A DNA stretch of 29,631 nt from Candidatus Bipolaricaulota bacterium (GCA_015661965.1 DQVA01000215.1:1-29631); one strand, 5' to 3'. Counted from the stretch's first letter, positions 25,937-29,631 are shown. A program made the numbers and translations. Notes: generated by a model from the sequence alone, not told the origin.

Positions 25937-26302
25937 ATGGCGAGGATCGCAGGCGTTAATCTGCCAGCCAAGAAGCGGATCGAGGTGGCACTGACCTACA
26001 TCTACGGGATCGGGCCCTCCCGGGCCAAGGAGATCCTGGCCAAGACCGGGGTGGACCCGAACACCAAGGTCATGGACCTCACCGAGCAGGAGGTAACCGC
26101 CCTGCGGCGGGAGGTGGAGTCCTACCCGGTGGAGGGTGATCTCAGGCGGCAGGTGAGGGCGCACATCCAGCGACTCATCGACATCGGCTGCTATCGGGGC
26201 ATTCGGCACAAGCAAGGGCTGCCGGTGCGGGGGCAGAAGACCCGGTCCAATGCCCGCACCTGGAAGGGGCCGCGGCCGGCCAAGGCCGGGAAGAGGAAGT
26301 AG
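25937..26302 (+). CDS. rpsM: 30S ribosomal protein uS13
   Basis: [38 protein letters not shown]. Confidence 0.99.
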
Positions 26303-26304
26303 TC

Positions 26305-26664
26305 ATGGCACGCAGGCAGAGCACCCGGAAGAAGAAGAAAGCGATCAAGCTGGAGCGGGCACGGGTGCACGTGCACTCCACGTTCAACAACACCATCCTC
26401 ACCCTGACAGACCTGGGCGGGGACGTGATCACCTGGAAGTCCCCGGGCACGGTGGGTTTCTCGGGCTCCCGCAAGGGGACACCATATGCGGCCCAGCTCG
26501 CTGCCCAGGCCTTGGCCAAGGAGATGAAGGATTATGGCATCCGGTCGGTGGTGGTCACGGTGAACGGGACCGGGCCGGGTAGGCAGGCGGCGGTACAGAC
26601 CCTCCGCGCGGCCGGCATCCAGGTGGAAGAGGTCAAGAACGTGACCCCCGTTCCGCACAGCTAG
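26305..26664 (+). CDS. rpsK: 30S ribosomal protein uS11, C-terminally shortened (119 aa)
   Basis: HSTFNNTI.T.TD, GF.GSRKGTPYAAQ; ends at VTPVPHS followed by a stop. Confidence 0.97.
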   Translation: MARRQSTRKKKKAIKLERARVHVHSTFNNTILTLTDLGGDVITWKSPGTVGFSGSRKGTPYAAQLAAQALAKEMKDYGIRSVVVTVNGTGPGRQAAVQTLRAAGIQVEEVKNVTPVPHS

Positions 26665-26677
26665 GAGGCCTGAGAAG

Positions 26678-27301
26678 ATGGGCAGGTATACCGGATCCAA
26701 GTGCAGGCTTTGTCGCCGTGAGGGAGTGAAGCTGTTCCTGAAGGGGGACCGCTGTTATTCGCCCAAGTGTGCCCTCTCTAAGCGGCCGTATGCGCCGGGA
26801 CAGCACGGGCGGTTCCGCCGGCGGGCCACCCAGTTCGCCATTCACCTACGCGAGAAGCAGAAGGCCAAACGCATCTACGGGGTGCGGGAAGGCCAGTTCC
26901 GCCGCTATGTGGAGCTGGCCAAGAAACGTAAGGGCGTCACCGGCGAGGCCCTGCTCAAGATCCTGGAGCGGCGGCTGGACAACGTGGTTTATCGTGCCGG
27001 GTTCGCCTACTCCCGGGACCAGGCCAGGCAGCTCATCAGCCACGGCCACTTCCTGGTGAACGGTCGCCACCTCAATGTCCCTTCCTACTTGGTGAAGGAG
27101 GGAGATCTGATCGAGGTGCGACCCCAGTCAAAGGACAAACTGCGGGAGCTCATAAAGGCAGCGGTGGAGCGCAAACCACTGCCCAGCTGGCTGAGCCGGG
27201 ATCTGGAGGCCCTGCGCATCCAGGTCGCCTCCGAGCCCAGCATGGAAGAGCTGGATCAGTCCATCGAGACCAGCTTGATCGTGGAATTCTACTCGAGGTA
27301 G
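26678..27301 (+). CDS. rpsD: 30S ribosomal protein uS4, Zn-binding type
   Basis: C..CRREG..LFLKG.RC...KC, LREKQK, LERRLDNVVYR.GF, ARQL..HGH. Confidence 0.99.
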   Translation: MGRYTGSKCRLCRREGVKLFLKGDRCYSPKCALSKRPYAPGQHGRFRRRATQFAIHLREKQKAKRIYGVREGQFRRYVELAKKRKGVTGEALLKILERRLDNVVYRAGFAYSRDQARQLISHGHFLVNGRHLNVPSYLVKEGDLIEVRPQSKDKLRELIKAAVERKPLPSWLSRDLEALRIQVASEPSMEELDQSIETSLIVEFYSR

Positions 27302-28233: not shown

Positions 28234-28584
28234 GTGAGGCATCGGCGCAAGGTTCCCAAGCTCTCTATGACACGTTCCCGGCGACGTTCGGTGCTGGCGG
28301 GGCAGGCCAAGGCGTTGATCCTACATGGCAAGGTGGACACCACCCCGGCCCGGGCCAAGGCCACCCAGCAGCTGGTGGAACGGCTGGTGACTTGGGCCAG
28401 GCGGGGGGACCAGGCGGCCCGCCGGCTGGCGTTTGCGGTCCTTCAGGATAAGGAAGCCACCCACAAGCTGTTCGAGGAAATAGGCCCCAAGTACAAGGAT
28501 CGCCCCGGGGGCTACACCCGCGTGCTCAAGTTGGGGCCCCGGCGCGGGGACGGGGCGGAGGAGGCACGGCTAACTTGGGTATGA
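28234..28584 (+). CDS. rplQ: 50S ribosomal protein bL17
   Basis: MRHR, TT..RAK, LF..IGP.Y.DRPGGYTR.LK.G.R.GD.A. Confidence 0.97.
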   Translation: MRHRRKVPKLSMTRSRRRSVLAGQAKALILHGKVDTTPARAKATQQLVERLVTWARRGDQAARRLAFAVLQDKEATHKLFEEIGPKYKDRPGGYTRVLKLGPRRGDGAEEARLTWV

Positions 28585-28967
28585 GGGAGGGGCGCAAGGC
28601 AATTGTCCCAGCGGGGGCGCAGACGGTGGGGCCCTATTCCCCGGCGATCCGCGCCGGGGATTTTTTGTTCGTCTCCGGGCAGATCCCGGTGGGCGAGTTC
28701 GGGGAGCTGGTGGACGGCGGGATCGAGGAGCAGGCGCGGCAGTGCATGGAGAACCTGCGGACGGTACTCGCGGCCGCCGGGGCCTCGTTCCCCGATCTGG
28801 TGAAGGTGACGATCTACCTCACCGACATGCGGGACTTCCCCGTGGTAAACCGGGTGTATGGGAGCTATTTCGACCTCGAGCCTCCGGCCCGGGCCTGTAT
28901 ACAGGTGGAGGCTTTACCCAAGGGGGCCCGCATCGAGATCGAGGCCATCGCCTACCTGGGCAAGTAA
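28581..28967 (+). CDS. ridA: RidA family reactive intermediate/imine deaminase (YjgF/YER057c/UK114)
   Basis: GPYSPA, VSGQIP, VKVTIYL, N..Y..YF...PAR.C..V..LPKG..IEIEAIA; catalytic Arg present. Confidence 0.93.
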   Translation: MREGRKAIVPAGAQTVGPYSPAIRAGDFLFVSGQIPVGEFGELVDGGIEEQARQCMENLRTVLAAAGASFPDLVKVTIYLTDMRDFPVVNRVYGSYFDLEPPARACIQVEALPKGARIEIEAIAYLGK

Positions 28968-29096
28968 CCCCCCTCTTCTCACATCCTACTTAAGAGATCC
29001 GCGGGCCTTGGCGTCGCGGCTATCCCGCCTCCGCTGGCACACGCTCCGGAAAGGATATTCGCACGGGAACCCCGCCTCGCGGTGGGGATGGCCGCT

Positions 29097-29102
29097 TATA
29101 AT
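29097..29102 (+). promoter_or_regulatory. Consensus -10 TATAAT upstream of rtcB, no recognisable -35
   Basis: Exact TATAAT 51 nt before the ATG, in high-GC intergenic DNA. Confidence 0.6.
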
Positions 29103-29153
29103 CGGAAACCGAGGGGCGCACAGCACGGCCCCTCCCGGGAAAGGGGGCAGGCG

Positions 29154-29631
29154 ATGGAACTAAAGAAGGTGAGCGATTGGGAGTGGGAACTTCCTAAGTC
29201 CGGGGACATGCGGGTCCCCGGGTGGATATTCGCCTCGGAGGAGATCCTGCGGCCCCTCCTCGACGTGAAGGGGCACGAGTGGAACGCCCTGGAGCAGGTG
29301 CGAAACGTGGCCTCGCTCCCCGGGATTGTGAAAGCCTCCATCGCCATGCCGGACGTGCATCCCGGCTATGACTTCCCCATCGGCGGGGTGGCTGCCTTCG
29401 ACCCCGCGGAGGGCGTGGTGGCCATGGGGGGCGTGGGGTTTGACATCAACTGCGGCGTGCGGGTGCTGGCCACCCCCTTGTCCCGGGAGGACGTTGAGGC
29501 CAAAAAGGAAGAGATAGCGGACCGGCTGTTCTCCCATGTGCCGGCCGGCTTGGGCTCCACCGGCAAGCTCAAGCTCACCGAGCGGGGCATCGACCAGGTG
29601 CTGGTGAAGGGGGCTTACTTCGCCCTGGAGC
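29154..29631 (+). CDS. rtcB: RtcB RNA ligase (3'-phosphate/5'-OH), 5' part only, runs off the right edge (not in the ORF track)
   Basis: Manual translation: MELKKVSDWEWELPKSGDMRVPG...QVRNVASLPGIV...MPDVHPGYDFPIGGVAA...GGVGFDINCGVR; SD AGGGGG. Confidence 0.95.
   Translation, partial: MELKKVSDWEWELPKSGDMRVPGWIFASEEILRPLLDVKGHEWNALEQVRNVASLPGIVKASIAMPDVHPGYDFPIGGVAAFDPAEGVVAMGGVGFDINCGVRVLATPLSREDVEAKKEEIADRLFSHVPAGLGSTGKLKLTERGIDQVLVKGAYFALE

What the first reader, a model, noticed from the sequence alone, without database searches (positions are those of the whole stretch)
26560..26680. uS11 lacks its near-universal C-terminal tail
Seen: the protein ends NVTPVPHS-TAG; only 13 nt remain before the rpsD ATG and no frame there encodes the expected NGCRPPKxRRV. 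The Asn after PH is Ser, and neighbouring basic motifs are also changed (KGPGxGRE to NGTGPGRQ). Established: this tail inserts into the 30S platform near h24/h45, bS18/bS21 and the SD-antiSD exit channel, and the Asn after PH is the isoaspartate site seen in high-resolution E. coli structures. Inference: a remodelled platform, perhaps with another protein or peptide supplying the tail, and possibly related to the leaderless genes noted above.
Basis: partly seen in the sequence, partly recalled or inferred. Interest (0 to 1): 0.72.

Follow-up and report, generated by a model that had tools for sequence, protein, structure and literature searches.

The report
Naturally tail-less ribosomal protein uS11
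In this uncultured hydrothermal-vent bacterium (phylum Bipolaricaulota), ribosomal protein uS11 really ends ten residues early and lacks the near-universal tail carrying an isoaspartate; this is a trait of the whole phylum that a 2026 preprint already noted, and here it is shown to go with matching changes in the 16S rRNA pocket and with no YbeY or bS21.

Summary
rpsK (26305-26664, +) encodes 119 aa ending PHS-TAG, and 13 nt separate the stop from the rpsD ATG. It aligns residue for residue with E. coli uS11 up to 119 of 129.

It is not an artefact:
- There is one rpsK copy per genome.
- 40 related genomes from 11 families (two closed) and 120 homolog clusters show the same end.
- Independent metagenome contigs show it too.

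The organism is a Bipolaricaulota (Acetothermia) MAG. A bioRxiv preprint (Xue et al., Aug 2026) already reports truncated uS11 with loss of YbeY in this phylum, so the core finding is known.

New here:
- YbeY was found in 0/151 and bS21 in 0/151 phylum genomes.
- The 16S h23 pocket that normally holds PH-isoAsp-G is changed. A718C occurs in all 79 authentic 16S genes, A715U in 74 of them, and U684A in those inspected.
- Conserved uS11 residues P89, E94 and D112 are replaced in all 120 homologs.
- The TAG stop lies inside the rpsD Shine-Dalgarno sequence.
- The short tails in some families look like secondary read-through.

I found no protein or rRNA expansion that could replace the tail, and no link to leaderless initiation. 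The scan's first readers noted the same feature on two other genomes.

The parts
26305..26664 (+). rpsK, ribosomal protein uS11, 119 aa, ending at S119 (E. coli numbering applies directly to residues 22-119)
   Evidence: ORF; Pfam PF00411 at 121 bits, profile positions 3-100 of 110; aligned 1-119 to 129-aa solved uS11 chains; gap-free alignment to E. coli uS11 22-119; only copy in the genome
26653..26664 (+). Codons P117-H118-S119 and the TAG stop at the place of G120. The isoAsp site N119 is Ser, and the tail 120-129 is absent.
   Evidence: In 120 homologs, H118 is kept in 119 and position 119 is S in 116 (G in 2, N in 2). Independent contigs from another study show no indel and no change at the stop.
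26563..26586 (+). Loop residues 87-94, NGTGPGRQ (canonical KGPGxGRE), with phylum-wide P89T/A/S and E94Q/N
   Evidence: In 120 Bipolaricaulota-type homologs, P89 is 0/120 and E94 is 0/120. In the nearest representatives of other bacteria, P89 is 91/99 and E94 is 94/99.
26638..26640 (+). Codon N112, where other bacteria have a near-invariant Asp (D112)
   Evidence: N in 120/120 homologs; D in 96/100 representatives of other bacteria
26663..26668 (+). AGGAGG Shine-Dalgarno of rpsD, overlapping the rpsK TAG stop (TAGGAGG), 9 nt before the rpsD ATG
   Evidence: Sequence. TAG followed by GAGG or GGAGG is kept in all 19 genomes of the same family while the rest of the spacer varies. The 16S 3' end keeps CCUCC.
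26678..27301 (+). rpsD, ribosomal protein uS4, 207 aa
   Evidence: Pfam Ribosomal_S4 and S4 domain
25937..26302 (+). rpsM, ribosomal protein uS13, directly upstream (usual rpsM-rpsK-rpsD-rpoA order)
   Evidence: Pfam Ribosomal_S13; ORF list

Best explanation
This is the intact, functional rpsK of a Bipolaricaulota bacterium. In this phylum uS11 was cut back, probably once on the stem lineage, so that it ends at residue 119. It has therefore lost the Asn-Gly isoaspartate site and the basic tail that elsewhere staples helices h23 and h45 of the 30S platform. The loss belongs to a coordinated remodelling. The isoaspartate-forming enzyme YbeY and the late platform protein bS21, which the isoAsp anchors in E. 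coli, are both missing. The 16S pocket that normally cradles P117-H118-isoAsp119-G120 is reshaped. A718, the purine on which H118 stacks, is C throughout the phylum. In most families the A675-A715 purine-purine pair has become a Watson-Crick A-U. Three otherwise near-invariant residues of the uS11 globular domain (P89, E94, D112) are fixed in new states, and the two acidic ones are neutralised to amides. The ribosome still uses Shine-Dalgarno pairing. Shown: the truncation, its distribution, the gene absences, the rRNA and protein substitutions, and the absence of obvious replacements. Inferred: that these changes compensate for one another. Also inferred: that the conserved small C-terminal residue (Ser119), whose free alpha-carboxylate and beta-carbon sit where those of isoAsp119 would sit, may act as a genetically encoded stand-in for the start of the isoAsp kink.
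For: The truncation is real:
- Sequence and alignments show it.
- There is one copy in the genome and in all 31 genomes, including the two closed ones.
- The same end occurs in 40 genomes of 11 families and in 120/120 closest homolog clusters.
- Logan contigs of three runs from a different study (2023) cover the rpsK end and rpsD start with no indel and no change at TAG. A contig from an RNA library of a ~93% relative reads VSHS-TAG.

Absences:
- YbeY was found in 0/151 phylum genomes and bS21 in 0/151. 69 of these are high quality and 2 are closed. The controls behave as expected.
- The usual ybeY slot after phoH and the HD-domain gene is empty; ligA follows directly.

16S:
- Own-genome and four relatives' 16S were aligned to E. 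coli rrsH and to the Rfam consensus.
- C718 is present in 79/81 phylum 16S segments.
- Position 715 is U in 74, C in 1 and A in 4 authentic genes of families f8 and f11.
- The two non-C718 cases are a mis-binned and a chimeric 16S.
- Background: in bacteria 675:715 is A:A in 2065 and A:U in 1 of about 2077 genomes. A718 or G718 is the norm (Watson et al. 2020, PMC7550191).

Protein co-changes.

Prior report of the truncation with YbeY loss in Bipolaricaulota: Xue et al., bioRxiv 10.64898/2026.08.26.747336.
Against: - No structure or proteomic data exist for a Bipolaricaulota ribosome, so every compensation claim rests on correlation within one clade. That amounts to one evolutionary event, not independent replicates.
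- bS21 is also absent from Thermus, Deinococcus, Thermotoga and Corynebacterium, which keep the tail and YbeY (controls). Its absence is therefore not specific to tail loss.
- C718 occurs in about 1% of other bacterial 16S entries that presumably have normal uS11.
- Families f4 and f5 carry 4-9 extra residues after S119. In them residue 119 is not C-terminal, which weakens the carboxylate-mimic idea as a general rule.
- Most genomes are incomplete MAGs, although two closed genomes agree.
Confidence: 0.85

Rival explanations
1. The tail function is supplied in trans by another protein or small peptide. Candidates would be an extended bS18, bS6 or bS21, or a new phylum-specific small basic protein that fills the vacated h23/h45 groove.
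For: The tail is otherwise near-universal and is described as stapling the platform, so a substitute is conceivable. Small-protein searches in GC-rich MAGs are insensitive.
Against: bS18 is 71 aa with no extension. bS6 sits in ordinary ~100-137-residue open frames in five relatives. bS21 is absent. No NGCRPPK-like peptide lies in any credible frame of the genome. A screen for SD-preceded, Lys/Arg-rich small ORFs returned only known ribosomal proteins, fragments of them and a few unrelated DNA-binding-like ORFs. The 16S pocket itself changed, which points to adaptation to an empty or differently filled site rather than to the same peptide supplied in trans.
Confidence: 0.06
2. Passive decay without compensation. 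After YbeY was lost the tail became useless or harmful and was simply lost. The rRNA and uS11 substitutions are then unrelated lineage markers of a slow-growing, genome-reduced clade.
For: The phylum has small genomes (1-2 Mb) and reportedly few ribosome biogenesis factors (bioRxiv 10.1101/2024.11.29.625318). All changes map to one stem branch, so correlation cannot be told apart from coincidence. C718 occurs sporadically elsewhere.
Against: The changed positions are not relaxed. They are fixed in new states: N112 120/120, Q/N94 117/120, S119 116/120, H118 119/120 and C718 79/79 authentic 16S genes. They cluster in the very nucleotides (715-718) that contact residues 117-120. The rest of h23, h24 and h45 matches the bacterial consensus.
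Confidence: 0.08
3. Artefact or recoding: an assembly deletion, a pseudogene, TAG read as sense, or a frameshift that fuses uS11 to uS4.
For: The rpsD frame is open from 26645, so a +1 shift would in principle fuse the two proteins. The genome is a fragmented MAG.
Against: The same end is found in two closed genomes and in dozens of independent assemblies. Other families use TAA or TGA at the same codon, so TAG is not a sense codon. Reading through TAG meets TGA after 3 codons. The spacer length to rpsD varies among relatives without keeping a frame. The gene is under strong purifying selection. No second rpsK exists.
Confidence: 0.01

Closest known systems
Truncated uS11 of Bipolaricaulota reported with loss of YbeY (Xue, ... 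Cate, Mitchell; bioRxiv 10.64898/2026.08.26.747336, Aug 2026, Fig. 4d and S13)
   Same: Same phylum and same feature: H118 is kept, positions 117 and 119 diverge, a stop stands at position 120, no tail lies in other frames, and YbeY is absent. This window is one more genome of that case.
   Different: The preprint text held here does not mention, for this phylum, the 16S A718C/A715U/U684A changes, the absence of bS21, the P89/E94/D112 substitutions, the overlap of the stop with the rpsD SD, or the short secondary tails in some families.
Canonical bacterial uS11 (E. coli RpsK, 129 aa) with YbeY-made isoAsp119
   Same: Same fold family (Pfam PF00411), same operon position and 48% identity over residues 22-119. 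H118 and the TP-x-P/S-H motif are kept.
   Different: It lacks N119-G120 and residues 120-129. P89, E94 and D112 are replaced. There is no YbeY and no bS21. The 16S partner nucleotides 715 and 718 differ.
YbeY-less lineages that changed N119 to G119 but kept the tail (Dojkabacteria, Gracilibacteria, UBP14; same preprint)
   Same: Loss of YbeY goes with loss of the isoaspartate-prone Asn.
   Different: Those lineages keep a full-length tail (G119-G120...). One such representative seen here ends PHGGCRKKGGRRGRRV (P0146). Bipolaricaulota remove the tail altogether.

Membership tests
Ribosomal protein uS11 (Pfam PF00411, rpsK) | Significant match to the family profile | tested here: met
   121.2 bits against a cut-off of 25.1; E = 3.5e-35. 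Best PDB matches are all uS11.
Ribosomal protein uS11 (Pfam PF00411, rpsK) | Position in the rpsM-rpsK-rpsD-rpoA-rplQ cluster, single copy | tested here: met
   Neighbours identified by Pfam and ORF order. One match in the genome and in each of 30 relatives.
Ribosomal protein uS11 (Pfam PF00411, rpsK) | C-terminal PHNG motif and basic tail (profile positions 101-110; E. coli residues 119-129) | tested here: not met
   The match stops at profile position 100 of 110. The protein ends at S119. This is a variant within the family, not grounds for exclusion.
YbeY-dependent isoaspartyl-uS11 platform module (uS11 N119-G120, YbeY, bS21, 16S 716-718 pocket) | Asn-Gly at positions 119-120 | tested here: not met
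   S119 is followed by a stop. Position 119 is S in 116/120 homologs.
YbeY-dependent isoaspartyl-uS11 platform module (uS11 N119-G120, YbeY, bS21, 16S 716-718 pocket) | ybeY gene present | tested here: not met
   PF02130 found in 0 of 151 phylum genomes, including the own genome (87% complete) and two closed genomes. It was found in 10 of 10 bacterial controls.
YbeY-dependent isoaspartyl-uS11 platform module (uS11 N119-G120, YbeY, bS21, 16S 716-718 pocket) | bS21 present | tested here: not met
   PF01165 found in 0 of 151 genomes and in 6 of 10 bacterial controls, matching the known distribution.
YbeY-dependent isoaspartyl-uS11 platform module (uS11 N119-G120, YbeY, bS21, 16S 716-718 pocket) | 16S purine at 718 and A-A pair 675:715 | tested here: not met
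   The own 16S has C718 and A675:U715. C718 is in 79/81 phylum segments, and the 2 exceptions are artefacts.
YbeY-dependent isoaspartyl-uS11 platform module (uS11 N119-G120, YbeY, bS21, 16S 716-718 pocket) | isoAsp actually present or absent in the protein | not testable with these tools
   This needs mass spectrometry or a high-resolution structure. With no Asn or Asp at 119, isoAsp cannot form there.
Bipolaricaulota-type truncated uS11 (Xue et al. 2026 preprint) | Ends after position 118/119, with YbeY absent, in a Bipolaricaulota genome | tested here: met
   Closest homologs are named Candidatus Bipolaricaulota or Acetothermia by their sources.

The most novel reading that the evidence does not exclude
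Ending the chain exactly at a small residue 119 is not mere loss. It may be a genetically encoded substitute for the isoaspartate. The C-terminal Ser119 offers a free alpha-carboxylate on the same C-alpha, and a beta-carbon in the same direction, as isoAsp119. Together with the reshaped 16S pocket (A718C, A715U, U684A) and the neutralised E94 and D112, this would give a stable platform that needs no YbeY, no isoAsp kink, no h23-h45 protein staple and no bS21. That would make it a natural minimal solution to a step recently proposed to be universal in ribosome biogenesis.
Probability: 0.25. Interest if true: 0.7.

Novelty: already known. Interest (0 to 1): 0.48.

Why it matters
Two 2026 preprints argue that isoaspartylation of the uS11 tail, by YbeY in bacteria and Fap7 in archaea and eukaryotes, is a nearly universal and functionally important step in small-subunit assembly. 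Bipolaricaulota are a free-living phylum that does without the modified residue, the tail, the enzyme and bS21. They are therefore a natural experiment on what that module is for.

The co-varying 16S nucleotides (715, 718, 684) and uS11 residues (89, 94, 112, 119) listed here give a concrete, testable set of candidate compensatory changes. These could be moved into E. coli to ask whether the tail and YbeY can be made dispensable. For genome annotation, a 108-119-aa rpsK in this phylum should not be flagged as truncated or as a pseudogene.

Tried and rejected
- **Second rpsK or assembly error:** none found.
- **Tail encoded in another frame or elsewhere in the genome:** a six-frame regex scan gave only chance PH[ND]G hits in off-frame translations.
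- **TAG read-through or a frameshift fusion to uS4:** rejected. Read-through meets TGA after 3 codons, other families use other stop codons, and the spacer varies.
- **Extensions on bS18 or bS6:** none. bS6 itself was not found in the own genome because contig C243 begins just upstream of ssb. This says nothing about its absence.
- **New small basic protein as a substitute:** a heuristic screen (SD-preceded, 30-110 aa, Lys/Arg-rich, coding-like GC3) gave only known ribosomal proteins, fragments of them and a few HTH or RHH-like ORFs. The screen is insensitive, so this is a weak negative.
- **rRNA expansion in the platform:** insertions relative to E. coli lie only near positions 90, 197, 1025-1039 and 1137, not in h20-h27 or h45.
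- **Rfam scan of the window:** no RNA family.
- **Apparent counter-examples with a canonical 16S pocket:** the G053 16S is only 76.5% identical to the own 16S, against 92-99% for the other family members, so it is mis-binned. The G132 16S is chimeric: its 5' part is 53-94% and its 3' part 95-100% identical to a congener.
- **Short basic tails in f4 and f5 as vestiges of the canonical tail:** judged less likely than secondary read-through. In f4 they are encoded by the purine-rich rpsD ribosome-binding region, with the stop overlapping the rpsD ATG. The families that keep the ancestral A715 (f8, f11) already end at or within two residues of 119. This is not proven, because no rooted phylogeny was made.
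- **First E. coli 16S reference:** the best BLAST hit (strain C311) had a non-E. coli middle part and was replaced by K-12 rrsH.
- **Truncated uS11 outside the phylum:** the representative search gave none. P0235 ends at H118 only because it is a contig-end fragment.

Full report
**The observation.** The + strand ORF 26305-26664 encodes a 119-aa protein ending ...EEVKNVTPVPHS. A TAG stop follows at 26662-26664, then 13 nt, then the rpsD ATG at 26678.
- It is uS11: Pfam Ribosomal_S11 scores 121 bits. The match covers only profile positions 3-100 of 110.
- Against solved structures it aligns end to end with residues 1-119 of 129-aa uS11 chains.
- Against E. coli K-12 RpsK it aligns without gaps over residues 22-119, so E. 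coli numbering applies directly.
- S119 therefore stands where the isoaspartate-forming N119 stands, and residues 120-129 (G-C-R-P-P-K-K-R-R-V) have no counterpart.
- The loop at 87-94 reads NGTGPGRQ where E. coli has KGPGPGRE.

**Not an artefact.** Several lines agree.
- The window is the whole contig C103 of a 1.5-Mb, 327-contig MAG that is 87% complete. It holds one rpsK.
- Thirty relatives, from the same genus up to the same class and including two closed genomes, each hold one copy.
- In all 19 genomes of the same family the protein ends (P/S/A)HS followed by TAG. Other families end at the same residue with TAA or TGA, or add 2-9 unrelated residues.
- Of the 120 closest protein clusters in a 5.8-billion-protein collection, none has the canonical tail. 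65 end at residue 119 (S 61, G 2, N 2) and the rest carry short non-canonical ends. Their sources name them Candidatus Bipolaricaulota or Acetothermia.
- Logan contigs from three runs of a different, later hydrothermal-vent study cover the end of rpsK and the start of rpsD with no indel and no change at the stop. A contig from an RNA library of a ~93%-identical relative reads VSHS-TAG.
- Reading through TAG meets a TGA after three codons. The rpsD frame is open upstream, but the spacer length is not conserved among relatives. No NGCRPPK-like peptide exists in any credible frame of the genome.

**Already in the literature.** A bioRxiv preprint of August 2026 (Xue et al., 10.64898/2026.08.26.747336) identifies YbeY as the enzyme that makes isoAsp119. 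[quoted passage not shown] The authors checked this in all three frames. The core of the finding is therefore known.
- A companion preprint (10.64898/2026.08.26.747345) calls the modification universally conserved. [quoted passage not shown]
- Within this scan, first readers noted the same feature on two other genomes (e1-5314555, e1-5046280).

**What goes with the truncation: genes.**
- YbeY (PF02130) was found in none of 151 phylum genomes. 69 of these are high quality and 2 are closed. It was found in all ten bacterial controls.
- In the own genome phoH is followed by an HD-domain gene and then directly by ligA. The slot where ybeY often lies is empty.
- Era is present.
- bS21 (PF01165) was also found in none of the 151 genomes. 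The controls show that Thermus, Deinococcus, Thermotoga and Corynebacterium also lack bS21 while keeping the tail. Its absence may therefore be older than the tail loss and is not specific to it.

**What goes with the truncation: 16S rRNA.** Watson et al. 2020 (PMC7550191) showed that P117-H118-isoAsp119-G120 packs against h23. There, three consecutive purine-purine pairs (674:716, 675:715, 676:714) change the helix direction, and H118 stacks on A718.
- I took the 16S gene of the own genome (contig C168) and of four relatives and aligned them to E. coli rrsH.
- 674:716 (G-A) and 676:714 (A-G) are kept. 675:715 is A-U, and 718 is C.
- In Watson's table 675:715 is A:A in 2065 bacterial genomes and A:U in one. 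In the held part of their genome list 718 is A in 1334 entries, G in 26 and C in 13.
- The Rfam bacterial consensus shows the same two mismatches. It also marks 684:706 as a non-standard A-A pair where the consensus has U. The 690 loop, the 790 loop, h45 and the anti-SD are ordinary.
- Across the phylum, 81 of 151 genomes carry this 16S segment, and 79 of those have C718. The two exceptions are a mis-binned 16S (76.5% identical to the own 16S, where family members are 92-99%) and a chimeric one.
- Position 715 is U in 74, C in one, and A in four authentic genes from families f8 and f11. The uS11 of those two families is nevertheless truncated.
- So truncation and C718 are phylum-wide, and A715U arose within the phylum.

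**What goes with the truncation: the rest of uS11.**

| Position | 120 Bipolaricaulota-type homologs | Nearest representatives of other bacteria, 1.84-billion-protein library |
|---|---|---|
| 89 | never P (T 94, A 19, S 6) | P in 91 of 99 |
| 94 | never E (Q 91, N 26) | E in 94 of 99 |
| 112 | always N | D in 96 of 100 |
| 118 | H in 119 | not tabulated |
| 119 | S in 116 | NG at 119-120 in 93 of 100 |

The changed positions are fixed in new states rather than relaxed. Two conserved acidic residues have become amides in a protein that has lost a strongly basic tail. Whether E94 and D112 touch the tail, bS21 or rRNA in canonical ribosomes I could not establish from the papers held.

**No visible substitute.**
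- bS18 is an ordinary 71 aa.
- bS6 in five relatives sits in ordinary open frames of about 100-137 residues.
- 16S insertions relative to E. coli lie in variable regions outside the platform.
- A heuristic screen for small, basic, SD-preceded ORFs gave nothing new. That screen is weak evidence.

**Initiation.** The TAG stop of rpsK is the first part of TAGGAGG, so the AGGAGG Shine-Dalgarno of rpsD sits 9 nt before its ATG. This arrangement is kept in all 19 family members while the rest of the spacer varies. The 16S 3' end keeps CCUCC in all five genomes examined. I see no support for a link between the missing tail and the SD-less genes noted elsewhere in the window.

**Short tails in other families.**
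- In family f4 the protein continues after S119 with K-G-R-R or similar. The codons are a purine-rich stretch (aag ggg aga aga) that runs into TAATG, so the stop overlaps the rpsD start. The added residues are thus encoded by what is the ribosome-binding region.
- Family f5 has His-rich or basic ends.
- Families f8 and f11 keep the ancestral A715 and already end at residue 119, or two residues after it in G063. I therefore read these tails as secondary read-through of a lost stop rather than as vestiges. Without a rooted tree this remains an inference.

**Mechanism, with its status.**
- Shown: the phylum has a uS11 that cannot carry isoAsp119 and cannot bridge h23 to h45. It has no YbeY and no bS21. 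The pocket nucleotides and three conserved uS11 residues are changed and fixed.
- Inferred: these changes are mutually compensating, so that H118 and S119 dock on a regularised h23 (one purine-purine pair turned Watson-Crick, a pyrimidine at 718) without the kinked tail.
- Speculative: ending the chain at a small residue 119 leaves a free alpha-carboxylate on the same C-alpha, and a beta-carbon in the same direction, as in isoAsp119. The truncation would then mimic the first atoms of the modified residue. The strong conservation of Ser at 119 and of the stop at 120 fits this idea. The families with added residues do not.

**Verdict.** This window adds one more genome. The follow-up adds the rRNA and protein co-variation, the bS21 absence and the negative search for a substitute.

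Noticed in passing
L054 (G053:C50) and L064 (G132:C55): Two Bipolaricaulota MAGs carry 16S genes that are not their own. G053's is 76.5% identical to the own 16S, against 92-99% for family members. G132's is a chimera: its 5' part is foreign and its 3' part is 95-100% identical to a congener.
   Followed up: yes
L037 (NZ_CP062204.1 1289197-1290738, E. coli strain C311): The annotated 16S of this RefSeq E. coli genome has E. coli-like ends, but its middle part around positions 655-760 differs from K-12 and looks like another organism's. It may be a chimeric or contaminated rrn copy.
   Followed up: partly
L105 and L114 (G000:C25:1-6535): phoH is followed by an overlapping 443-aa HD-domain gene and then directly by NAD-dependent DNA ligase ligA. 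The position where ybeY usually lies in phoH operons is empty.
   Followed up: yes
L024, L026 (G022, G025); P0100, P0115: One genus (family f5) ends uS11 with histidine-rich heptapeptides after S119 (T-E-P-H-I-H, T-D-H-H-M-H, A-E-H-H-L-H). These are unlike the basic ends of other families. Their meaning is unknown.
   Followed up: no
L098:467-682 (G000:C243): bS18 of this genome has Cys at C-x-x-C near the N-terminus and a further Cys in H-L-C-A-K-H. It may be a zinc-binding type of bS18.
   Followed up: no
P0121-P0123: The top-scoring representatives are ~205-aa 'uS11' proteins in which an internal segment is repeated exactly in tandem. These are most likely misassemblies in public contigs, not real duplicated proteins.
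   Followed up: partly
L034 (G000:C168), 16S position 684 (E. coli numbering): Bipolaricaulota 16S has A at 684 where the bacterial consensus has U. This makes 684:706 an A-A mismatch inside h23, close to the uS11 site. It was seen in all sampled genomes except the two artefactual 16S genes.
   Followed up: partly
window 28575-28967 and 29082-29630: Directly after rplQ lie a RidA/L-PSP-like ORF that overlaps the rplQ end, and then an RtcB-like RNA ligase ORF that runs off the contig. Both names are by eye only and were not tested.
   Followed up: no
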